This document shows positions 2,784 to 41,728 of a stretch of 47,209 bases of DNA, one piece after another. A program made the position numbers and the translations under genes. The DNA lies in assembly GCA_022013085.1 (NCBI GenBank), contig JAKLQX010000002.1, forward strand, positions 1 through 47,209, given 5' to 3'. This stretch comes from Candidatus Omnitrophota bacterium. GTDB lineage: Bacteria; Omnitrophota; Gorgyraeia; Gygaellales; Profunditerraquicolaceae. The number at the start of each line of letters is the position of its first letter. Positions within the stretch are counted from its first letter, which is position 1. Under the pieces are notes generated by a model that was given only the letters and a program-made list of their open reading frames with translations, did not search any database and was not told where the DNA came from.

Positions 2784-5000
2784 TTAAAGGTAGCTTTCAA
2801 TTGCCCTGCTCCAGGCCTTGTAAAAATCATTAACCGTTTTATTGATTAACCGGTTAATAACCAGCCTATTGCCTCCGACCTTGCCGATTACGGCAAGCGG
2901 AGTTTTATTCTTCTTAGCGATTTGCAATATCTTTTTTACGTCTTTAGCTTTAGCGCTCAAGATAATCCTGGACTGAGACTCGCCGAATAAAAGCGCATCC
3001 TTCCTTATTTTCCCCGAATCCAGGTTAATTACTGCGCCTATTTTTTTAGCAGGATTGCTCATGCAGGCTTCGGCTAAGGCTACGGCTAAACCGCCTTCGG
3101 AACAATCGTGCGCAGATTTAACTAAACCTTTTTCTATAGCCTCCAGTGCCGTCTTCTGTACGCTCTTTTCCAACTTTAAATCTAAAGAAGGACAAGCACC
3201 CCTCTTTAAACCATGGACGGTTTTTAAATATTCGCTGCCGCCTAATTCTTCTTTATTTTTACCGAGCAGCAGAATTACATCCCCGCTATTTTTAAAATAC
3301 AGAGTTACGGCTTTGGATTTATCTTTCAACAATCCCACCATGCCTACAATCGGAGTAGGATCAACTGAACCCTTAGGGTTCTCGTTGTTAAAACTGACGT
3401 TGCCACTGACTACCGGCGTATTCAAGCTCCGGCAGGCCTTGCTAATACCTAAAACCACCTGCTTAAACTGCCAGAAAACTTCCGGATTCTTAGGATTACC
3501 GAAGTTTAACCCGTCGGTAATCGCTAAGGGCTTGGCGCCTGAACAGACGATATTCCTGGCTGCTTCAGCTACGCAAATCTGCCCGCCTACAAAAGGATCG
3601 AGATAGCAATAGGTAGAGTTACAATCCGTGGTAGCGGCAATCGCTTTTTTGGTTCCGGGGACAAGCGCTATTCCGGCATCAGAGCCGCCGGGTGCGACCA
3701 CTACAGCCTTGGCAACTTTGGCATCGCCATGTTTAAATACCCATCCTTTACTGGCAATGGTTGGATTGCTTAAAAGCTTAATAAGCGTGCGATTACAATC
3801 CCCGGGCTCTTTTATACTGGCTAAATTTAGCTTATTAACCTTAGCTAAATATTTCGGCCTGGAAGCTTTACGCTGATATACCGGCGTTTCAACCAAGGAA
3901 GCGGCAGGCACTTCTGCGACTACCTCTCCGTTTTCCTTAACCCGCACCATACCGTCGCCGGTAACGTGGCCGATTACATCCACAGGAACCTTCCATTTAG
4001 AAAGGATGTTTTCTACTTGTTTTAATCTTTCCTTAGTAACAATCACTAACATCCTCTCCTGTGATTCAGAAAGCATAATTTCATACGCATTCATGCCTTC
4101 TTCTTTGCGGGGAACTAAGGCAATATCAATTTCTATACCTGTATTCGCCTTATAGGAAGTCTCACAGGTGGAACATATTAACCCGGCAGCGCCCATATCC
4201 TGCATACCGACAACCAAACCCTTATGTATTAATTCCAGGCAAGCCTTTCTAAGAATCAATCCCATTTTGGGATCGCCTATAGCCACAGCTGAGCTGTTTT
4301 TATTCGCTTCTGCGCTTAATCCTGCGGAGGCAAAAGCAGCTCCCGCTACGCCGTCCCTTCCAGTTGCTCCGCCGATAATCAAGACTAAGTTGCCCACTCC
4401 ACTAGCCCGGGCTTTAACTAATTCCTTATTCTTCACTACACCTACGGTCATGGCATTAACCAGGGGATTGCCTTCAAAAGATTCGTCAAAATAAATTTCA
4501 CCGCCTAAAACAGGCATCTCTACTATATTAGCGTAATCAGTAAAACCGCGGATAATATTCTTGAATAAAAATTTGACCCGGCTGTTTTCCAACCTGCCAA
4601 GGCGCAAAGAATCCAAAAGGCCTATTGGCTTAGCACCCATGGTAAAGATATCCCTGATGCAGCCGCCGCCGCCGGTAGCTGAAGCAGCATATGGCTCGAC
4701 TGCCGAAGGATGATTATGTGATTCAACCTTAAACACTACGCCCATACCGTCGCCGATATCTACAACTCCGGCATTTTCGCCGGGCCCCTCGATTACCTGT
4801 TTGCCTTTGGTAGGAAAAAGTTTCAGTACGGGTTTTGAATTCTTATAAGAACAATGTTCGCTCCACATCGCTGAAAAAAGGCCTAATTCCGTATAGTTGA
4901 GTTCGCGGCCGAGGCGTTTTTTAATCATATTATACTCTTCCATGGTCAGGCCTTCTTTTTCGATTATCTCTTTTGTTACGATGATATCGTTACCAGACAT
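2784..5000 (-). CDS. purL: phosphoribosylformylglycinamidine synthase subunit II
   Basis: 738 aa. It has the small-PurL layout and motifs (VESHNHPSAVEPY, GGATGRDG) and lies in a pur operon. Confidence 0.95.
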   Translation of the reverse strand: MSGNDIIVTKEIIEKEGLTMEEYNMIKKRLGRELNYTELGLFSAMWSEHCSYKNSKPVLKLFPTKGKQVIEGPGENAGVVDIGDGMGVVFKVESHNHPSAVEPYAASATGGGGCIRDIFTMGAKPIGLLDSLRLGRLENSRVKFLFKNIIRGFTDYANIVEMPVLGGEIYFDESFEGNPLVNAMTVGVVKNKELVKARASGVGNLVLIIGGATGRDGVAGAAFASAGLSAEANKNSSAVAIGDPKMGLILRKACLELIHKGLVVGMQDMGAAGLICSTCETSYKANTGIEIDIALVPRKEEGMNAYEIMLSESQERMLVIVTKERLKQVENILSKWKVPVDVIGHVTGDGMVRVKENGEVVAEVPAASLVETPVYQRKASRPKYLAKVNKLNLASIKEPGDCNRTLIKLLSNPTIASKGWVFKHGDAKVAKAVVVAPGGSDAGIALVPGTKKAIAATTDCNSTYCYLDPFVGGQICVAEAARNIVCSGAKPLAITDGLNFGNPKNPEVFWQFKQVVLGISKACRSLNTPVVSGNVSFNNENPKGSVDPTPIVGMVGLLKDKSKAVTLYFKNSGDVILLLGKNKEELGGSEYLKTVHGLKRGACPSLDLKLEKSVQKTALEAIEKGLVKSAHDCSEGGLAVALAEACMSNPAKKIGAVINLDSGKIRKDALLFGESQSRIILSAKAKDVKKILQIAKKNKTPLAVIGKVGGNRLVINRLINKTVNDFYKAWSRAIESYL

Positions 5001-5237
5001 TTAAAACTCCTTTCAAAAAATAAAGCAACTTTTATTTTTATTAACCTTAATTAAACGGATTTCTACATCCTTGTAGGGAACTTTACGTTTTCTGCGCCAT
5101 TGCAGATATTCTCGGAGCGCCTGCGCGCCGCTTAATATTCACTTAGATCTTTGGAGGGGGTGATTTTACCCGATCTATAAAAGCTAACTCCTTTTTTCGC
5201 CTATTGATAAATTGCTGTGTCAAGATCCCGCTTATTG

Positions 5238-7894: not shown

Positions 7895-7909
7895 TAGATT
7901 GTAAAACAT

Positions 7910-7956
7910 GGGGACGGTTCTATTTAATTAAATAGAACCGTCCCCTTTATTTTTTT
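7910..7956. terminator. bidirectional intrinsic terminator between convergent genes
   Basis: Perfect 36-nt palindrome GGGGACGGTTCTATTTAA|TTAAATAGAACCGTCCCC (7910-7945) followed by TTTATTTTTTT on the plus strand. The minus strand has the weaker tail ATGTTTTAC. Confidence 0.8.
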
Positions 7957-9678: not shown

Positions 9679-10855
9679 ATTCTTCCTTAAGCAATTCCGG
9701 TTTTAAATCCACAAAATCTGAGTTGACTTCTTTAGCACCCAATCTTCTAAATACTTCATGAATAGTTTCTAATGTGATATCTCTTCCGCCTAAACCACCA
9801 ACAAAACTACTGATTATCTTTGGCCCTTTTTTCTTGCCAAAAAACGCTGCTTTCATCTCAACAGCAACCGGGGCATAGGCACCTAAAGAAACTGCCTTAT
9901 CTAAAACTGCTACCTTGGTAACATCTTTTAAAGCTTCATAAACCCGAGCATAGGGAAATGGCCGATAAGTGATAATGCGTAAGAGCCCAACTTTTTTGCC
10001 TTTTGCGCGCTGCTCATCAATTACTTCCTTAATCGTCCCACAAACTGAACCCATAGCTACAATTACCTTTTCAGCGTCTTTAACTTGATACTCTTCAACC
10101 AGCAAATCTTTATAATCTCGGCCGAAAACTGACAAAAACTCCTTACTTATCTCAGATAAGTAAACCAATGATTCTTTCATGGTTTCCTGGATGGCAAAAC
10201 GCGTCTCCATATAATAGTCTGGATCAGCTAAAAGCCCCATGGAAATCGGTTCATTAGTATCTAATTTATATAAAGCCTGATAACTAGGCAAAAATTTATT
10301 TACTTTATCCTGCTCTGGGATATCCACTGTTTCCATGCCGTGAGTCAAAATAAACCCATCCATACAAACCATTACCGGCAACATCACCCGTTTGTCTTCA
10401 GCTAAACGGTAAGCGACAAGATGAAAATCTGCTGCCTCTTGGTTATCTTCGGCATAAATCTGAAACCATCCTGAATCACGCAATGATATAGAATCCTGCT
10501 GATCATTCCAAATATTTATCGGAGCACTTATTGCGCGATTTGCGCAAGTCATTACAACCGGTAGGCGCATTCCAGCAATATTAAAAACTACTTCCTGCAT
10601 ATAAAACAAACCTTGTGAGCTAGTCGCAGTATAAACGCGTACCCCGGTTGCCGATGCGCCCAAAACTACCGAAGCAGCTGAGTGTTCGCTTTCTACATTG
10701 ACAAATTGCGAAGTTAATTCGCCATTTGCCACCATCTGCGCCAGGCCTTCAACAATATGCGTCTGAGGTGTTATAGGATAGGCAGAGATCACTCCTGGTT
10801 TACAGGATTTGATTATTTCTGCTACCGCGCGTGATCCCTCTAGGAATTCCTTCAC
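9668..10855 (-). CDS. porA: 2-oxoacid:ferredoxin oxidoreductase, alpha subunit
   Basis: 395 aa with the AYPITPQT motif. The start is a GTG at 10855-10853 that lies partly inside the repeat arm. Confidence 0.9.
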   Translation of the reverse strand: MKEFLEGSRAVAEIIKSCKPGVISAYPITPQTHIVEGLAQMVANGELTSQFVNVESEHSAASVVLGASATGVRVYTATSSQGLFYMQEVVFNIAGMRLPVVMTCANRAISAPINIWNDQQDSISLRDSGWFQIYAEDNQEAADFHLVAYRLAEDKRVMLPVMVCMDGFILTHGMETVDIPEQDKVNKFLPSYQALYKLDTNEPISMGLLADPDYYMETRFAIQETMKESLVYLSEISKEFLSVFGRDYKDLLVEEYQVKDAEKVIVAMGSVCGTIKEVIDEQRAKGKKVGLLRIITYRPFPYARVYEALKDVTKVAVLDKAVSLGAYAPVAVEMKAAFFGKKKGPKIISSFVGGLGGRDITLETIHEVFRRLGAKEVNSDFVDLKPELLKEEYGE

Positions 10856-10928
10856 CCCGCACCTTCTTCCTTATTTAATTTATCAAACCGTATAGCCTTA
10901 ATAGTTGAATATTTAGAAGGTGCGGGGT
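10854..10928 (-). repeat. palindromic-ended intergenic cassette, copy A (porD|porA junction)
   Basis: Perfect 14-bp inverted arms ACCCCGCACCTTCT (10854-10867) and AGAAGGTGCGGGGT (10915-10928) around a 47-nt AT-rich core. The arms are identical in copy C, and one arm is identical in copy B. Confidence 0.9.
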
Positions 10929-11201
10929 TCATTTATCCTCACCTTTAGATTCTTCAGGCACCATCGCAATATCTTTTTTAGGGCAGATATCCGCGCATAC
11001 CCCGCAACCTTTACAAAAATTATAATCCGCCCAAAAAGCATTCTTTTCTTTGCCATGTACACAGCCTTCCGGACAAATCATCAAACACATCCTGCAGGCA
11101 ATGCAATCTTTATGCAGATAATGCGGACGATACTGCACTCTCCAGCTACCAGTCTTATCCCCTTTACTCTTTGATGGTTTTACAGTTAGCGGACCAAACA
11201 T
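10929..11201 (-). CDS. porD: 2-oxoacid:ferredoxin oxidoreductase, delta (2x[4Fe-4S]) subunit
   Basis: CIACRMCLMICP and CKGCGVCADICP motifs; 90 aa. Confidence 0.9.
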   Translation of the reverse strand: MFGPLTVKPSKSKGDKTGSWRVQYRPHYLHKDCIACRMCLMICPEGCVHGKEKNAFWADYNFCKGCGVCADICPKKDIAMVPEESKGEDK

Positions 11202-11202
11202 T

Positions 11203-11775
11203 TTATCCCCTGCCTGCCGGCAGGCAGGCTTTTAGCTTGTTCTTAACAATCTCAAAACCTTCTTTAACTGCTTGAATATTGCCTTCTTGGGCTTTGCCTT
11301 GAAACCTTTTCTTAATCACTTCAATAAGGTTATCCAGCTTGAGCTCTCCGGTAGCAGCAGCAAAAGCGCCAATTAAAGCAGTATTACCTAAAGGCCGGCC
11401 TATAGTTCTCATAGCAATCTCATTGGCCGCAACCACAAAAACCTTCTGCTTTGACTTTAATTTAGGTAACTCCATATCTTCTTTGCCGTTAATAATAGCG
11501 ATGCCATCCTCTTTTAAACCGGAAAAACAGTTATATCCGCGCATAAGCGTAGAATCAACGATAATTACATAATTAGGTTCATAAATCTGGCTACGTAAAC
11601 GCACTGGATCACTATCCACGCGCACAAAAGCATTCATAGGCGCACCCATTCTAGCTGCCCCAAAGTTAGGAAAGGCATAAGGGTACTTGCCCTCATTAAA
11701 ATAGCTAAACCCTATTAATGTTGCAGTAGTAATTGCGCCCTGACCTGCGCGAGCATGAATCCTAATCTCTTTCAT
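11203..11775 (-). CDS. porG: 2-oxoacid:ferredoxin oxidoreductase, gamma subunit
   Basis: MKEIRIHARAGQGAITTA... is typical of gamma subunits. I placed the start at the ATG 11775, which has AAGGA 7 nt upstream; the track start at 11799 lacks an SD. The last 8 codons are encoded by a 20-bp palindrome. Confidence 0.85.
   Translation of the reverse strand: MKEIRIHARAGQGAITTATLIGFSYFNEGKYPYAFPNFGAARMGAPMNAFVRVDSDPVRLRSQIYEPNYVIIVDSTLMRGYNCFSGLKEDGIAIINGKEDMELPKLKSKQKVFVVAANEIAMRTIGRPLGNTALIGAFAAATGELKLDNLIEVIKKRFQGKAQEGNIQAVKEGFEIVKNKLKACLPAGRG
11209..11228. repeat. perfect 20-bp palindrome CCTGCCTGCC|GGCAGGCAGG
   Basis: Read directly from the sequence. It lies inside the porG 3' end and abuts the porD SD. 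Confidence 0.9.
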
Positions 11776-18674: not shown

Positions 18675-18879
18675 CTCTGGTAGTTTTCGCAGCGAATGTC
18701 GATTTTAGCCAATGGAGCTTGCTAGTTGGGGACGTCCTCTTAGGGGACACCCTTGATCAAGGGTGTCCCCTTTTGGCACGTCCCTCTTTTCCGATGGCGA
18801 GGATGTTTGTTCCGCAGCCACCGGAATGCGAAAGATCATTGGCGTTAAAAAATCGACCTGAGTGAGAAAACTAGCAGAG
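18675..18879. other. candidate structured RNA (6S-like architecture) or decayed MITE; strand unresolved
   Basis: Three stacked long-range helices: 18675-18690/18864-18879 (14 of 16 Watson-Crick), 18698-18706/18849-18857 (9 bp) and 18708-18715/18836-18843 (7 bp plus one G-U). They enclose a 12-bp perfect hairpin (18743-18770) nested in GGGACGT/ACGTCCC (18729-18735/18778-18784), plus a small TTCCG/CGGAA hairpin. Confidence 0.4.
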
Positions 18880-33776: not shown

Positions 33777-34517
33777 TTAGTTAGGTAAATATTTTTTTGC
33801 CGCGTTTAAATACTTATAATCCCCAATATCAAACCAAGTACCATTAAAAACATATCCATAGACATCTGTTCTTGTTTTTAACCAAGCAATATAACCACCC
33901 GTAGCATCGGTTTGCTTTTTTTTATCTTGTAAATACTCCTCGATCAAACTTAAGAAATTTTTGGGCATATAGTATAAACACATAGCCACGAGGTTAGATT
34001 GCGGGTACTTAGGTTTTTCAATAAAGCTCACAACTTTTTTCTGACTATTTAATTTAGCTACCCCATAACGACTAGCGTCTTTTTTGTACTTTAATTTGTA
34101 TAAACCTACAGTAGCTTGCGAAATATTTTTCTTAGAAAAAGCTAAAAATTCGCTTAAAGAGCCACTAAACAAATTATCCCCACCAATTATTAAAAGATCC
34201 TCTTTAACCCTTTGTTTCTTTATAGCAAAATTTATATCGCCTATAGCGCCTAATCTATCTTGATTGTTTCTAGTTAAATCATCTATTATGGTAATCTTCT
34301 TGGGCGATTTAATTGATTTTTTCCACAAACGGAAAAACTTGATAAATTTGCTATTAGTAATAAGATAAATCTCATCAATAACGGAAACCCTATCTAATTT
34401 ATCAATTATATAATCTACAATCGGCCTACCCTTAACTTCAAGCAAGGGTTTTGGATATTCCTTGGTTAGTGGATAAAGCCGAGTAGCATAACCGGCAGCT
34501 AAAATCAGCGCCTTCAC
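33777..34517 (-). CDS. sugar-1-phosphate nucleotidylyltransferase family protein
   Basis: MKALILAAGYATRLYPLT is the NTP_transferase signature. The GTG start (34517-34515) lies partly inside the repeat arm. Confidence 0.7.
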   Translation of the reverse strand: MKALILAAGYATRLYPLTKEYPKPLLEVKGRPIVDYIIDKLDRVSVIDEIYLITNSKFIKFFRLWKKSIKSPKKITIIDDLTRNNQDRLGAIGDINFAIKKQRVKEDLLIIGGDNLFSGSLSEFLAFSKKNISQATVGLYKLKYKKDASRYGVAKLNSQKKVVSFIEKPKYPQSNLVAMCLYYMPKNFLSLIEEYLQDKKKQTDATGGYIAWLKTRTDVYGYVFNGTWFDIGDYKYLNAAKKYLPN

Positions 34518-34666
34518 CCCGCACCTTCTTTCTTAATTAATTTATCCAGCACTTTCTTATTATTCATTTGTTTAAACCGTAAGTTTTTAATGCTTGAATC
34601 CTTAGAAAGTGCTGGATTTATCAAACCGCATTACTTCAATAGTTAAATATTTAGGAAACTCAGGGT
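34516..34666 (-). repeat. palindromic-ended intergenic cassette, copy B (ptsI|nucleotidyltransferase), with one decayed arm and a nested insertion
   Basis: The arm at 34516-34529 is identical to those of copies A and C. The distal arm at 34653-34666 (AGGAAACTCAGGGT) is degenerate. Once 34546-34615 is removed, the core aligns with copy A. Confidence 0.85.
34546..34615. mobile_element. nested 70-bp MITE-like sibling element with 12-bp terminal inverted repeats and an ATTTAT(C) flanking direct repeat
   Basis: CCAGCACTTTCT...AGAAAGTGCTGG, flanked by ATTTAT at 34540-34545 and 34616-34621. Copy A shows the uninterrupted site TTAATTTATCAAACCG. Confidence 0.55.
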
Positions 34667-34671
34667 TCATT

Positions 34672-37920: not shown

Positions 37921-37987
37921 AATTACCTGTTTAAAAAAATAAAGGGGACGGTTCCTTTTTCTATCAGGTCAGGAGACGGAAAAACAG
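37921..37987 (-). terminator. intrinsic terminator downstream of ptsN
   Basis: The minus strand reads GGGGACGGTTC-(32 nt)-GAACCGTCCCC followed by TTTATTTTTTT. The stem and tail are identical to the module at 7910-7956. Confidence 0.8.
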
Positions 37988-38005
37988 AACCGTCCCCTAG
38001 ATTCT

Positions 38006-38476
38006 TTAAATCTTTTTTTCGTCTTCCTGCGTAATGATTTTGGTTACAGATTTTTCGTCGATACAGGCACGTAAGGTATCGCGAAAATACTTATCTTTTA
38101 AAAGACGCGATATTCTGGCTAAAGCCTTAAGGTGTGGGCCAGCGGAATCCTGCGGAGCCACAAGTAGAAAAAAGATATAAGCCAACTCTCCATCCAAAGA
38201 ATCAAAATCTACGCCTTTCTTTGAAAGACCAAAAGCAGCAACTAACTTATTCACACAGTCGCATTTTGCATGCGGGATGGCTATGCCTTGGCCAATTGCA
38301 GTCGAACCTAAAGCCTCTCTAGACATAAGGGCATCAATGAGTTTATTGCGGTTGCGTTTCTCAACATCTCCAGCTTCAATTAAAAGATCCACCATCTCTT
38401 TAAGCACATCTTCCTTCCTAGTGGATTTTATATCAGTAATAATAGCCTTCTTAGAAAGAAAATCCATTATCTGCAT
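38006..38476 (-). CDS. ptsN: PTS IIA(Ntr)-type regulatory protein
   Basis: 156 aa; GQGIAIPHAK is the active-site His motif of EIIA(Fru/Ntr). Confidence 0.8.
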   Translation of the reverse strand: MQIMDFLSKKAIITDIKSTRKEDVLKEMVDLLIEAGDVEKRNRNKLIDALMSREALGSTAIGQGIAIPHAKCDCVNKLVAAFGLSKKGVDFDSLDGELAYIFFLLVAPQDSAGPHLKALARISRLLKDKYFRDTLRACIDEKSVTKIITQEDEKKI

Positions 38477-38615: not shown

Positions 38616-38689
<74 letters not shown>

Positions 38690-38716
38690 GTTTTTTATTC
38701 TTTTCACCCTAAGAAC

Positions 38717-38801
38717 TGGTGGGCGGAAGAGGATTTGAACCTCCAAGGGTTGCCCCAATAGCTCCTAAGGCTATCGTGTCTGCCAATTTCACCATCCGCC
38801 C
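38717..38801 (-). tRNA. tRNA-Leu(UAG), type II, with encoded CCA
   Basis: Acceptor GGGCGGA/TCCGCCC, a 3-bp D stem, anticodon arm ATAGC-CTTAGGA-GCTAT, a 13-nt variable arm, T arm GGAGG-TTCAAAT-CCTCT, then ACCA. Confidence 0.9.
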
Positions 38802-38836
38802 AGAAAAGGGCCACTGCTTGATTCTTACTGAATTTA

Positions 38837-38909
38837 TGAGCCTCCCGCGACTCGAACGCGGCACAACCACATTAAAAGTGTGGTGCTCTACCGGATGAGC
38901 TAGAGGCCC
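38837..38909 (-). tRNA. tRNA-Lys(UUU)
   Basis: GGGCCTC-TA-GCTC-ATCCGGTA-GAGC-A-CCACA-CTTTTAA-TGTGG-TTGTG-CCGCG-TTCGAGT-CGCGG-GAGGCTC-A; 73 nt. Confidence 0.95.
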
Positions 38910-40217: not shown

Positions 40218-40742
40218 TTATTCGCCGATCTTGTAGCGGATAAACCTGCGGATAACAATCTTTTCGCCGATTTTTGCTACAATACTACCTAAATAATCCT
40301 TAATAGTTATACTCGGGTCTTTAAGAAAAGCTTGCTCAAATAAACAATTATTTTTGTAATACTCTTCATCGCTTTTATCATGTTGCAAAAGCTCCGCCGG
40401 AACATCTTCTTTTTGGATATAAACCGGGCTGGTTGCGGCAATTTGCATTGCTAAATCTTTGGTAAACCTGGCGAAATCTTCGTTCTTCGCTACAAAATCA
40501 GACTCACAGTTTGTTTCCAGTAAAACCCCGATCTTGTTGCCATGATGGATATAAGCATCAACGCGGCCTTCTTTTGCACTGCGGCCCTGTTTCTTAGCAG
40601 CAATCTCTAAACCCTGTTTACGCAATAATATCACTGCTTGTTTGATATCTCCTTTAGCCTCTTCCAAAGCCTTTTTACAATGCGCAATACTAGAGCAAGT
40701 AATATCTCTTAATTCTTTAATCGCATTCACTGAACTCTTCAC
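40218..40742 (-). CDS. tsf: elongation factor Ts (short form, 174 aa)
   Basis: VNAIKELRDIT...CKKALEEAKGDIKQAV is the UBA-like N-terminus. It lies in rpsB-tsf-pyrH-frr order. The GTG start (40742-40740) lies partly in the repeat arm. Confidence 0.85.
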   Translation of the reverse strand: MKSSVNAIKELRDITCSSIAHCKKALEEAKGDIKQAVILLRKQGLEIAAKKQGRSAKEGRVDAYIHHGNKIGVLLETNCESDFVAKNEDFARFTKDLAMQIAATSPVYIQKEDVPAELLQHDKSDEEYYKNNCLFEQAFLKDPSITIKDYLGSIVAKIGEKIVIRRFIRYKIGE

Positions 40743-40835
40743 CCCGCACCTTCTTTCTTATCTAATATTATTTTATATTTATCATCCCTTAAACCTTCAG
40801 CATGTTAAACAACGAATATTTAGAAGGTGCGGGGT
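40741..40835 (-). repeat. palindromic-ended intergenic cassette, copy C (rpsB|tsf junction)
   Basis: The arms at 40741-40754 and 40822-40835 are identical to copy A. The 67-nt AT-rich core shares its ends with copy A (CTTAT..., ...GAATATTT). Confidence 0.9.
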
Positions 40836-41728
40836 TACCCTTTCTTTCTCAATTTCGGCTTTATCTCACCGGCTGACTTTAGGCGAGCTTTCTTGGCTGC
40901 TTTTGCTTCTTCAGTAAGCGGCTGGCTATCCTCAACAATCTCTTCAATCTCTTTAATCTTGATTTCTTCTTCCGGGAGAACTTCTAAAATAATATCCTGC
41001 TTTGTTTCTTCTACCTTAACCCCTTCCTGAGAAAGATAAGACAAAAATTTCTTCCTTCCTTCAATAATTGTATCCGCGATAATTGCAGCTACTGTTCGGA
41101 TGGACTTCGTAGCATCATCATTACCAGGTATAGGGTAATCTATTAAATCAGGATTAGAATTAGTATCAATCAAACCAATTATAGGAATTCCCAGCCTGCG
41201 CGCTTCTTTCACAGCAGTTTCTTCTTTCTTCGTATCGACAATAAAAGCTGCTTTAGGCATACGTTCCATAGACACAATACCTGAAAAGTTTTTATTCAAC
41301 TTGGCTAACTCTTTTTCCAGGCGCGCTACTTCTTTTTTGGTCAACTTTTCAAATATTCCATCAATACGCATCTTCTCAATCTCTTTTAAACGATTAATAC
41401 TTTTCTTAATCGTAGTAAAATTGGTAAGCATACCACCTGGCCAACGGTCAGTAACATAGTACATGCCGCTTCTTATGGCCTCCTGCTTAATCACATCCTG
41501 AGCCTGTTTTTTGGTACCAACAAAAAGGACAAATTCGCCTTTTGAGGTTATATCCATTAAGAAATCACGAGCAGCATTAACGCACTCCTCAGTCTTCTCC
41601 AGGTCAATAATGTAAATACCGCTTCTTGAACCAAAAATAAATTTCTTCATCTTAGGATTCCAGCGTTTAGTCTGGTGCCCAAAATGTACACCTGCTTCTA
41701 ACAACTGTTTAATTAATTCTGATGGCAC
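40835..41728 (-). CDS. rpsB: 30S ribosomal protein S2 with an acidic/Lys-rich C-terminal extension
   Basis: [19 protein letters not shown] is the S2 signature. GTG start; 297 aa. Confidence 0.95.

What the first reader, a model, noticed from the sequence alone, without database searches (positions are those of the whole stretch)
10854..10928. Recurrent palindromic-ended cassette that fills a stop/start junction and carries the SD and GTG start of the downstream gene (copy A, porD|porA)
Seen: the coding (minus) strand reads TGA(porD stop)-ACCCCGCACCTTCT-47 nt AT-rich-AGAAGGTGCGGGGT-G-AAG. The two 14-mers form a perfect inverted repeat with 9 G-C pairs. The 5' arm starts 0 nt after the porD stop. 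The 3' arm holds the only SD-like run (AAGGAAGAAGG) and the first two bases of the porA GTG start. Identical arms recur at 40741-40754/40822-40835 (rpsB|tsf), and one identical arm recurs at 34516-34529 (ptsI|nucleotidyltransferase). The AT-rich cores are alignable, and all three downstream genes begin GTG-AAG at the same position relative to the arm. Inference: in the mRNA the hairpin would bury the SD and start codon unless it is melted by the ribosome terminating on the upstream cistron. That would make it a portable device for obligate translational coupling. Alternatively it is a selfish element tolerated only where it rebuilds a start site. I know of no described element with this arrangement, but I cannot search.
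Basis: partly seen in the sequence, partly recalled or inferred. Interest (0 to 1): 0.7.

Follow-up and report, generated by a model that had tools for sequence, protein, structure and literature searches.

The report
Mobile mini-element that rebuilds start codons
The palindromic-ended cassette is a 73-bp piece of mobile parasitic DNA, a cut-down copy of a 0.3-kb element that encodes only a small GIY-YIG nuclease; it inserts into the TGAA of ATGAA gene starts and is tolerated because its end plus the duplicated target rebuilds a ribosome-binding site and a GTG start for the host gene.

Summary
Perfect arms lie at 10854-10928 and 40741-40835, and one arm lies at 34516-34529 (5 hits against 0.22 expected).

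The unit is a 13-bp terminal inverted repeat (CCCCGCACCTTCT / AGAAGGTGCGGGG) flanked by a 4-bp target duplication, here TGAA. It is a mobile insertion:
- Strains about 98.5% identical to the window carry the empty porD|porA junction GATAAATGAAGGAATTC, the classic ATGA stop/start overlap.
- The third copy holds a nested second element (TSD TAAA) that is absent from a sister genome.

The same ends occur in Omnitrophota and Planctomycetota MAGs. About 13 of 18 independent insertions sit exactly on a start codon. The terminal G (or A) plus the duplicated TG rebuilds GTG (or ATG), and the arm supplies an SD at normal spacing.

Short copies are deletion derivatives of 285-380-bp elements. Their only gene is an 85-106-aa GIY-YIG nuclease, often read from the host start codon to the TGA of the duplication. 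It is related to the Ssn nucleases, but the DNA ends differ.

In old copies (rpsB|tsf in relatives) the hairpin decays while SD and GTG persist. So the element is selfish, not a coupling device. Coupling by hairpin melting is a plausible side effect. I found no prior description.

The parts
10855..10927 (-). Copy A: 73-bp non-autonomous element (MITE). Left arm CCCCGCACCTTCT at 10915-10927, right arm AGAAGGTGCGGGG at 10855-10867.
   Evidence: It is absent from L103, L104, L106, L108 and L109, which carry an identical PorD protein. It is present in L105, L107 and L110.
10928..10931 (-). Left copy of the target duplication TGAA. It contains the porD stop TGA (10929-10931). Together with A at 10932 it forms the old porA ATG (10930-10932).
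   Evidence: The empty allele reads GGTGAGGATAAATGAAGGAATTCC. The blastn alignment of L104 breaks at 10928/10854 with a 4-nt overlap.
10851..10854 (-). Right copy of the target duplication TGAA. The element's last G (10855) plus TG (10854-10853) forms the present porA start GTG.
10852..10932 (-). Mini-[29 protein letters not shown]. It opens at the old ATG, which overlaps the porD stop (ATGA). It runs through the element and ends at the TGA that overlaps the new GTG (GTGA).
   Evidence: The same MNPAPSKYS opening is the N-terminus of the GIY-YIG ORF of full-length elements.
40742..40834 (-). Copy B: 93-bp element at rpsB|tsf. This is an old insertion. Right duplication TGAA at 40738-40741, tsf GTG at 40740-40742. 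On the left the S2 stop TAA (40835-40837) abuts the arm, and the original spacer TTTTAAAATG has been lost.
   Evidence: Relatives with the empty junction read GGGGTAATTTTAAAATGAAGAGTTCAGTG. Filled junctions are shared by many relatives.
34517..34665 (-). Copy C (outer element, 149 bp = 73 + nested 72 + 4) at ptsI|nucleotidyltransferase. The left arm is degenerate (CCCTGAGTTTCCT) and the right arm is perfect. Duplications TGAA at 34666-34669 and 34513-34516. Old ATG at 34668-34670, new GTG at 34515-34517.
34545..34616 (-). Nested element D: a 72-bp MITE of a sister lineage (arms TCCAGCACTTTCT / AGAAAGTGCTGGA) inserted into copy C. Target duplication TAAA at 34617-34620 and 34541-34544.
   Evidence: It is absent from L195 (GCA_030655815.1), which reads GGTTTGATAAATTAATTAAG. 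It is present in L194.

Best explanation
[quoted passage not shown] It is a 73-bp internal-deletion derivative of a 285-380-bp element. That parent consists of two 13-bp terminal inverted repeats and one gene, a single-domain GIY-YIG nuclease of 85-106 aa.

**Shown here.**
- It inserted into the tetranucleotide TGAA of the porD/porA junction ...AAATGAAGG... and duplicated it.
- The left TGAA keeps the porD stop and the old ATG.
- On the right, the element's terminal G joins the duplicated TG to give GTG-AAG. So porA keeps its native N-terminus (MKEF...).
- The right arm (AGAAGGTG) supplies a Shine-Dalgarno match at the spacing that other genes of the window use.
- The same happened at rpsB|tsf and at ptsI|nucleotidyltransferase.

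**Inferred.**
- *Why start codons dominate.* Copies persist preferentially at start codons. Insertions elsewhere in coding DNA are lethal or costly, and only here is the gene repaired. ATGAA(A) is also a very common gene start.
- *How the parent is expressed.* In the autonomous parent, the host's own SD and start codon translate the nuclease. Its ORF runs from the duplicated start codon through both arms (NPAPS...EGAG) to the TGA of the right duplication. That TGA overlaps the rebuilt host start (GTGA).
- *What moves it.* The GIY-YIG nuclease is the protein that mobilises both full-length and miniature copies. It probably recognises the arms, possibly as a hairpin in single-stranded DNA as the related Ssn nucleases do.
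- *Effect in the mRNA.* The arms pair and hide the new SD and GTG. Ribosomes that terminate on porD, or that translate the 26-codon mini-ORF from the old ATG, open the stem. Downstream translation therefore stays dependent on the original initiation signals. This coupling is a by-product, not the reason the element exists.
For: **Mobility**
- PorD-identical contigs split into empty and filled alleles that differ exactly by element plus one TGAA.
- L104 is 98.5% identical to the window on both sides of the break.
- The nested element has its own empty site and a TAAA duplication.

**Family**
- The left-end 20-mer occurs in 22 loci of other MAGs. Right arms lie 49-332 bp away, and no longer partner was seen.
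- Elements with identical 4-bp flanks gave TGAA 37, TTCA 10, TTGA 6, TGAG 3, TGGA 2, TCAA 2 and TTTA 2, in a list that counts some composite and re-fetched copies twice.

**Start-site rebuilding**
- 13 of 18 independent insertions lie on a start codon followed by a long ORF. In the window, 9 of 35 non-disruptive TGAA sites are start codons, which gives p = 5e-5.
- Variants whose ends are T...A regenerate ATG instead of GTG.
- porA relatives start ATGAA, GTGAA or ATGAG.
- At rpsB|tsf in relatives, all 45 junctions with gaps of 10 nt or less start with ATG. Of 20 junctions with gaps of 35 nt or more, 17 start with GTG.
- SD spacing is typical for the window.

**Parent element**
- L013 holds a 332-bp element with the same arms and a GIY-YIG ORF (PF01541, 3e-15). 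It is flanked in tandem by short copies that share its subterminal sequence.
- The L016 miniature copy retains the nuclease N-terminus.
- Of 95 homologues, 34 start xPAPS and 36 end xGAG. CPR homologues end KVRG, the same arm DNA read in another frame.
- 61 of 78 loci examined gave an inverted repeat of at least 9 bp around the gene. Roughly 50 of these begin with the CCC-type motif, at 285-380 bp spacing.
- 12 full-length copies sit on host start codons, 7 of them with the nuclease in frame.
- Four MAGs hold both miniature and full-length copies.
- The catalytic-type residues Y, Y, R, H and E are invariant.
- Arm changes are matched on both ends only in lineages that have their own nuclease.

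**Hairpin**.
Against: - No experiment links the GIY-YIG protein to movement. GIY-YIG nucleases are not known to carry out strand transfer, and they usually leave 2-nt overhangs, which does not obviously give a 4-bp duplication.
- No full-length copy lies in the 47-kb window, and the source genome could not be scanned whole.
- Enrichment at start codons could reflect target choice rather than survival. The data cannot separate the two.
- Both downstream haplotypes occur in filled and empty states. That needs recombination, precise excision or repeated insertion.
- Copy B lacks a perfect duplication (GTAA against TGAA).
- Taxon labels of MAGs may be unreliable.
Confidence: 0.85

Rival explanations
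1. Selected regulatory device. The hairpin is kept by the host to enforce obligate translational coupling between neighbouring cistrons.
For: - The stem (-36 kcal/mol, z -5.2) covers the SD and the first two bases of the start codon.
- The 5' arm begins 0 nt after the upstream stop in copies A and B.
- The pre-insertion junction was already an ATGA coupling site.
Against: - Presence or absence is polymorphic among strains about 98.5% identical.
- In the old rpsB|tsf copies the left arm decays or is deleted while SD and GTG stay.
- Uncompensated arm mutations occur in short copies.
- Copies occur at first genes, in intergenic DNA and in tandem arrays.
- Target duplications and a coding parent are not expected of a host regulatory motif.
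Confidence: 0.07
2. MITE mobilised in trans by a conventional (DDE-type) transposase encoded elsewhere. The GIY-YIG gene would be only a passenger that some copies picked up.
For: - A 4-bp TNNA-like duplication and short inverted ends are typical of cut-and-paste DDE elements (from my own knowledge of IS5/IS701-like families).
- GIY-YIG enzymes have no known strand-transfer chemistry.
Against: - Among all loci found through the element's end, the partner arm was never more than 332 bp away. The only coding version carries GIY-YIG.
- Most of the GIY-YIG relatives from several phyla are bounded by co-diverging arms at 285-380 bp, with nothing else inside.
- The nuclease ORF spans the arms and uses the duplicated start and stop.
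Confidence: 0.12
3. Domesticated Ssn-like system. The arms are binding or cleavage sites of a host-serving single-strand DNA nuclease, for example one that controls transformation or recombination. The repeats would spread by recombination rather than transposition.
For: - The nuclease family is homologous to an NTS-flanked Ssn-type protein: 39% identity, hhalign probability 97.9%.
- Chenal et al. 2025 (PMC11893778) show that such proteins cut ssDNA next to cognate hairpin repeats, and they note the IS-like layout.
Against: - Exact 4-bp duplications and clean empty sites indicate insertion, not recombination.
- The SRM search motif has 0 matches in the window and in the L013 locus, while the control locus L359 is positive.
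- Each arm is not itself a hairpin.
- Copies disrupt or occupy start sites rather than flank particular gene classes.
Confidence: 0.08
4. Homing-endonuclease behaviour. The GIY-YIG enzyme cuts empty alleles, and the element is copied in by homologous repair. The flanking repeats would be part of the recognition site.
For: - The same porD|porA site is filled in two different flanking haplotypes, and both haplotypes also exist empty.
- Several CPR copies sit at one identical site in the RNase P RNA gene.
Against: - Homing cannot account for dozens of unrelated insertion sites, variable duplicated tetranucleotides, tandem and nested insertions, or non-coding miniature copies.
- The protein lacks the DNA-binding domain of known GIY-YIG homing enzymes: it is 85-106 aa with a single Pfam domain.
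Confidence: 0.1

Closest known systems
Ssn nucleases with NTS/SRM repeats (Chenal et al., Nat Commun 2025, PMC11893778)
   Same: - A roughly 94-aa single-domain GIY-YIG protein whose gene is bracketed by inverted copies of a G+C-rich CCCGC-containing repeat.
- The same repeat occurs in many extra copies in the genome.
- The authors note that the layout is 'identical to' an insertion sequence.
- Our nuclease aligns to an NTS-flanked homologue at 39% identity.
   Different: - Each NTS/SRM is itself a 20-50-nt hairpin with an oriented flank. Here each end is a plain 13-mer, and the two ends pair with each other.
- The SRM motif is absent here.
- The paper reports no target duplications, empty sites, deletion-derived miniature copies or start-codon rebuilding.
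- The paper proposes a role in transformation control.
Bacterial MITEs such as Correia/CREE elements (Neisseria), RUP, Nezha and MITEAba12
   Same: - Short, non-coding, with terminal inverted repeats and target duplication.
- Many copies, co-transcribed with neighbouring genes, and able to form mRNA hairpins.
   Different: - Known families derive from DDE-transposase insertion sequences. They typically supply promoters, terminators or RNase III sites (from my own knowledge and the review PMC10969869, listed).
- None that I know of, or could find, regenerates SD plus start codon or derives from a GIY-YIG gene.
Rickettsia palindromic elements (RPE)
   Same: Palindromic mobile repeats that survive inside genes because the insertion keeps the gene functional.
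   Different: RPEs insert in frame within coding sequence and are translated as part of the host protein (from my own knowledge). Here the host protein is unchanged, and the element lies between the old and new start codons.
REP/BIME with RAYT, and IS200/IS605 'peel and paste' elements
   Same: Very small elements or repeats that depend on a nuclease recognising DNA hairpins, probably in single-stranded DNA.
   Different: Those use HUH Y1 transposases, make no target duplication, and insert next to a fixed tetra- or pentanucleotide (from my own knowledge, and as cited). Here there is a 4-bp duplication and a GIY-YIG protein.
Translational coupling at ATGA overlaps, and hairpin-masked ribosome sites (e.g. 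the RNA phage coat/replicase paradigm; reviews PMC12548453 and PMC6728339, listed)
   Same: - The downstream SD and start are sequestered in a stem that upstream translation can open.
- The stop/start overlaps ATGA and GTGA are both present in copy A.
   Different: Here the arrangement is created by a selfish insertion, and it is not conserved once the element ages.

Membership tests
MITE (non-autonomous terminal-inverted-repeat element) | Short, non-coding, bounded by terminal inverted repeats | tested here: met
   Elements are 49-115 bp with 13-bp perfect arms.
MITE (non-autonomous terminal-inverted-repeat element) | Target-site duplication, with empty sites in related genomes | tested here: met
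   TGAA at copy A and TAAA at nested D, each with an exact empty allele. 65 element calls with matching 4-bp flanks (the list includes some composite and re-fetched copies).
MITE (non-autonomous terminal-inverted-repeat element) | Multiple dispersed copies at unrelated loci | tested here: met
   22 loci in other MAGs plus 4 copies in the window.
MITE (non-autonomous terminal-inverted-repeat element) | A longer coding element with the same ends, from which the short copy derives | tested here: met
   The L013 332-bp element shares arms and subterminal sequence with the adjacent 55-bp copy. The L016 copy keeps nuclease codons.
MITE (non-autonomous terminal-inverted-repeat element) | The parent's protein is a transposase | not testable with these tools
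   The protein is a GIY-YIG nuclease (PF01541). No transposition chemistry is known for this fold.
Ssn / SRM system (cd10448) | Single-domain GIY-YIG protein of about 94 aa belonging to the cd10448 clade | tested here: inconclusive
   Size and single domain are met. It is homologous to an NTS-flanked protein but about equally close to UPF0213 structures 1zg2 and 1ywl. CDD is not available.
Ssn / SRM system (cd10448) | Gene and genome carry SRM repeats (HGTCWY..YYVSBRH..WNVSBRG..RNCYNB hairpins) | tested here: not met
   0 matches in the window and in the L013 locus. The control locus L359 gives 3.
Ssn / SRM system (cd10448) | Site-specific cleavage of single-stranded DNA next to the repeat | not testable with these tools
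   Biochemical property.
IS200/IS605-type or REP/RAYT | HUH Y1 transposase, no target duplication, subterminal hairpins | tested here: not met
   A 4-bp duplication is present. The only protein is GIY-YIG.
GIY-YIG homing endonuclease | Nuclease domain plus separate DNA-binding domain. Spread only into the homologous empty allele. No inverted ends. | tested here: not met
   85-106 aa with one domain. Inverted ends and many unrelated sites.
Curated structured RNA (Rfam) | Match to a curated covariance model | tested here: not met
   The window gives only three tRNAs at gathering threshold. Nothing at E<=1 in 10780-11000.
Intrinsic terminator / promoter cassette | Stem followed by a T-run, or -35/-10 hexamers above chance | tested here: not met
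   no terminator-like site at any copy, and promoter-like matches are not above the shuffles.

The most novel reading that the evidence does not exclude
These elements represent a previously unrecognised class of prokaryotic DNA transposon, among the smallest conceivable (about 0.3 kb). Its sole protein is a roughly 90-aa GIY-YIG nuclease. Its reading frame starts at the host gene's own start codon and ends at a stop created by the target duplication. The element thus parasitises host translation signals and pays the host back with a rebuilt SD and start codon. The same strategy may let relatives sit inside RNase P RNA (arms as the P3 stem) and inside prepilin leader peptides.
Probability: 0.45. 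Interest if true: 0.9.

Novelty: new variant of a known kind. Interest (0 to 1): 0.72.

Why it matters
- **Possible new transposon class.** GIY-YIG enzymes are known from homing endonucleases, restriction enzymes, repair proteins and Penelope retroelements, but not as the engine of a bacterial inverted-repeat element with target duplication. If the nuclease is the mobilising enzyme, this is a new class of DNA transposon. It would also give a mobile-element explanation for the thousands of unexplained small GIY-YIG genes in uncultivated phyla (18,213 cluster representatives match the profile).
- **Open question from the Ssn paper.** The Ssn paper of 2025 asked whether those nuclease-repeat pairs are, or were, mobile. 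This family offers a direct test, because it has clean empty sites.
- **Host-compatible insertion.** The element lands on the start codon, borrows it, and hands back a working SD and start.
- **Annotation.** A GTG start preceded by ...AGAAGGTGCGGG is a footprint of the element. The mini-ORFs and N-terminally extended nuclease calls are predictable artefacts or products.
- **Biotechnology.** The arms and the cognate small nucleases are candidates for sequence- or structure-specific DNA tools.

Tried and rejected
- **Rfam.** Nothing at the elements, at gathering threshold over the whole window or at E<=1 locally.
- **Terminator and promoter scans** at the three copies showed nothing above chance.
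- **Full-length nuclease gene in the window.** tblastn finds only the ...EEGAG remnants at the right ends.
- **Phage carriage.**
  - The two viral-contig hits to the right end plus TGAA are chance matches with no left arm.
  - The protein profile finds one weak viral relative.
- **Conserved relay mini-ORF.** I first thought a mini-ORF ending at the TGA of the right duplication might be a conserved relay. Its stop position varies: it ends at that TGA in 8 of 34 element rows and elsewhere inside the element in most others. I therefore rejected it as a selected feature.
- **SsnA protein sequence.**
  - The paper's supplements are not held.
  - I instead recovered NTS-flanked homologues by scanning for the NTS motif.
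- **NCBIfam** gives no family above cut-off.
- **Whole-genome census.** The source genome is not in the genome collection, so this could not be done. The 20-mer scan did not return it, and its close relative GCA_030655815.1 was reached only through protein look-ups.
- **Literature.** Seven searches found no description of a start-codon-rebuilding MITE or of a bacterial GIY-YIG inverted-repeat element with target duplication. The library holds open-access papers only.
Full report
**1. The observation**

On the coding (minus) strand the window reads ...GATAAATGA-ACCCCGCACCTTCT-(47 nt, AT-rich)-AGAAGGTGCGGGGT-GAAGGAATTC. The 14-mer occurs five times in the window. Dinucleotide shuffles give 0.22 expected, and none of 100 reaches five. 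The hits are:
- both arms at 10854-10867/10915-10928;
- both arms at 40741-40754/40822-40835;
- one arm at 34516-34529.

Pfam confirms the flanking genes: 4Fe-4S ferredoxin (porD-like) | porA (POR_N, PFOR_II), ribosomal protein S2 | EF-Ts, and PEP-utilising enzyme | nucleotidyltransferase. The three downstream ORFs all start GTG-AAG, with GT inside the arm. As RNA the two complete copies fold at -36.2 and -35.1 kcal/mol (z -5.2 and -5.0). The description is therefore correct.

**2. Anatomy: inverted ends plus a 4-bp direct repeat**

Read one base further in, the element is CCCCGC...GCGGGG (13-bp arms) flanked on both sides by TGAA. Copy A reads AAATGAA|CCCC...GGGG|TGAAGG. Copy C reads AATGAA|CCCTGAG...GGGG|TGAAGG.

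Copy C has a decayed left arm. It also contains a second 72-bp element with matching but different arms (TCCAGCACTTTCT/AGAAAGTGCTGGA), flanked by TAAA. With that element and one TAAA removed, copy C is 73 bp and 59/73 identical to copy A.

**3. It is a mobile insertion**

- *Copy A.* Contigs encoding a PorD identical to the window's fall into two classes. L103, L104, L106, L108 and L109 read GGTGAGGATAAATGAAGGAATTCC. This is the empty site, with the porD stop TGA overlapping the porA ATG. The window, L105, L107 and L110 carry the element between two TGAA. L104 (assembly GCA_030655815.1) is 98.5-98.6% identical to the window on both sides. The alignment breaks exactly at 10928/10854 with a 4-nt overlap.
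- *Nested element.* The same assembly (L195) has copy C without the nested element and reads GGTTTGATAAATTAATTAAG.
- *Copy B.* At rpsB|tsf, metagenomic relatives with an empty junction read GGGGTAATTTTAAAATGAAGAGTTCAGTG. The native tsf start is therefore ATG-AAG-AGT, the same codon that is GTG in the window.

**4. The family**

The left-end 20-mer occurs in 22 loci of MAGs labelled Omnitrophota, Phycisphaerae, Sedimentisphaerales and Planctomycetia. Some labels may be unreliable. Every hit has a right arm 49-332 bp away, and no longer partner was seen.

Element calls with identical 4-bp flanks gave TGAA (37), TTCA (10), TTGA (6), TGAG (3), TGGA (2), TCAA (2) and TTTA (2), mostly T-N-N-A. That list counts some composite and re-fetched copies more than once.

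After collapsing orthologous insertions, 13 of 18 events lie exactly on a start codon. The left flank is (A/G)TGAA|, the right flank is |TGAA, and a long ORF follows. One of these ORFs is the 37-aa L36. In the window, 415 TGAA sites exist on both strands: 380 are inside coding DNA, 26 are intergenic and 9 are at start codons. Even against only the non-disruptive sites (9/35), the excess is significant (p = 5e-5).

Variants whose ends are T...A give ATG instead of GTG. The arm's AGAAGGTG aligns to the SD consensus at the spacing that other genes of the window use.

**5. The parent**

In L013 a 332-bp element with the same arms lies in tandem between two short copies, at the start of an RND transporter gene. 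It encodes a 106-aa protein with a GIY-YIG domain (PF01541, 3e-15). The adjacent 55-bp copy shares its right subterminal sequence. Another short copy (L016) still encodes IYHVYLLKSRKNN, the nuclease N-terminus.

The protein has 95 homologues in the word-indexed search. Of these, 34 begin xPAPS and 36 end xGAG. These are the translations of the two arms, so the ORF runs from the start codon in the left duplication to the TGA in the right one. CPR homologues end KVRG, which is the same arm DNA read in another frame. The conserved feature is therefore DNA, not peptide.

Of 78 genomic loci encoding relatives that I examined, 61 gave an inverted repeat of at least 9 bp around the gene. Roughly 50 of these start (A/T)CCC(C/A/T)(G/C)C..., at 285-380 bp spacing. 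They come from Omnitrophota, Planctomycetota, Patescibacteria, Nitrospirae and proteobacterial MAGs.

Twelve full-length copies sit on host start codons followed by long host ORFs. In seven of them the nuclease is in frame with the host start. Four MAGs contain both short and full-length copies. Catalytic-type residues are invariant.

Arm changes are matched on both ends only in lineages that have their own nuclease. Single, unmatched changes occur in short copies. A full HMMER scan finds 18,213 cluster representatives at E<=1e-3 and 2,556 at E<=1e-10.

**6. Device or parasite?**

At rpsB|tsf, 70 relatives were compared.
- All 45 junctions with gaps of 10 nt or less start with ATG.
- Of 20 junctions with gaps of 35 nt or more, which carry the element's footprint, 17 start with GTG.
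- In many filled junctions the left arm is mutated or deleted, and other palindromes have inserted. Intergenic folding energy ranges from -49 down to -2 kcal/mol. Yet GGAAGGTG and GTG persist.

Selection therefore keeps the rebuilt ribosome site, not the hairpin. Together with the population polymorphism, this rejects a host-selected coupling device.

The physical argument remains reasonable. In copy A the old SD (GGTGAGGA) and ATG survive. They open a 26-codon ORF that covers the left arm and stops at the TGA overlapping the new GTG. In copies A and B the upstream stop abuts the arm. A translating or terminating ribosome would open the stem. This step is inferred, not shown.

**7. Comparison with what is known**

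The nearest published system is the Ssn family (PMC11893778). These are about 94-aa single-domain GIY-YIG nucleases that cut single-stranded DNA beside cognate hairpin repeats (NTS/SRM). The repeats bracket the gene in an IS-like layout.

I recovered NTS-flanked homologues (L358, L359). Our family aligns to one at 39% identity with hhalign probability 97.9%. It is about as close to the UPF0213 structures. The SRM motif itself is absent from the window and from the L013 locus, while the control locus is positive. Here each end is not itself a hairpin.

Target duplications, empty sites, deletion-derived miniature copies and start-codon rebuilding are not described in that paper. They are not in anything else my searches returned. 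Rfam has no match. There is no terminator or promoter signal. There are no genuine copies on viral contigs.

**8. Verdict**

The finding is real and is explained. It is a MITE of a so far undescribed family whose parent encodes only a small GIY-YIG nuclease. It is inserted at the ATGA junction of porD/porA, and it is tolerated because end plus duplication rebuilds SD and start.

The mobile nature and the start-site rebuilding rest on direct sequence evidence. Three steps are inferences:
- that the nuclease moves the element;
- the cause of the start-codon bias;
- hairpin-mediated coupling.

Noticed in passing
L081 ~1480-1790, L083, L054, L040, L063 (loci): In several Patescibacteria-type MAGs the full-length GIY-YIG element lies inside the RNase P RNA gene...GATCG|CCCCGCAC..ORF..GTGCGGGG|AGGAAAGTCCG. 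The arms occupy the position of the P3 stem just 5' of the P4 strand. Rfam RF00010 hits occur in four of the five loci. No obvious target duplication is present there.
   Followed up: partly
Proteins P0105, P0113, P0121-P0123, P0141, P0146, P0155 and others: 41 of the 148 best representatives not already seen are 180-655 aa. Most of those inspected are a GIY-YIG domain fused in frame to a prepilin-type N-terminus (...NGAG|FTLIE...). The right arm encodes GAG, directly before the G|FTLIE prepilin-peptidase site. This suggests insertion into pilin leader peptides, with the nuclease released on processing.
   Followed up: no
window 11212-11225: The perfect palindrome GCCTGCCGGCAGGC lies immediately upstream of the porD ATG, at the porG|porD junction. 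The same palindrome is nested in the decayed rpsB|tsf element of relatives L202, L206, L208, L218, L223 and L228. It may be a second small mobile palindrome family.
   Followed up: partly
window 7903-7952 and 37931-38010; also 18729-18784: Repeated GGGGACGGTTC/GAACCGTCCCC hairpins lie in intergenic positions: 4 hits against 0.22 expected. They look terminator-like. The same motif appears in the odd contig L111 right after a truncated copy A.
   Followed up: no
L103-L110 against window 10851-10931: Both downstream haplotypes (GGGATCACGCGCGG and GGGTTCATATGCGG) occur with and without the element. This implies recombination between strains, precise excision, or repeated insertion at the same TGAA.
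   Followed up: partly
L013 6281-6765; L006 ~4871-5087; L038 ~1450-1770; L032 ~1829: Elements occur in head-to-tail tandem, separated only by the shared TGAA. The junction GGTGCGGGG-TGAA-CCCCGCACC is a tight hairpin. The duplicated target next to an element seems to be a preferred target for the next insertion.
   Followed up: partly
They come from many phyla: Alpha-, Beta- and Gammaproteobacteria, Dehalococcoidia, Planctomycetota, Nitrospirae and others. In L359 and L358 it brackets an Ssn-type gene in inverted orientation.
   Followed up: partly
L004 3708-3755; L064 1506-1833: A sister lineage has arms CCCAGCCCCTCCT/AGGAGGGGCTGGG. Its right arm contains a perfect AGGAGG SD. Its 48-bp miniature copy also sits on a start codon (TGAA, GTG, 200-aa ORF).
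   Followed up: no
window 38616-38909: A cluster of three tRNA genes lies on the minus strand.
   Followed up: no
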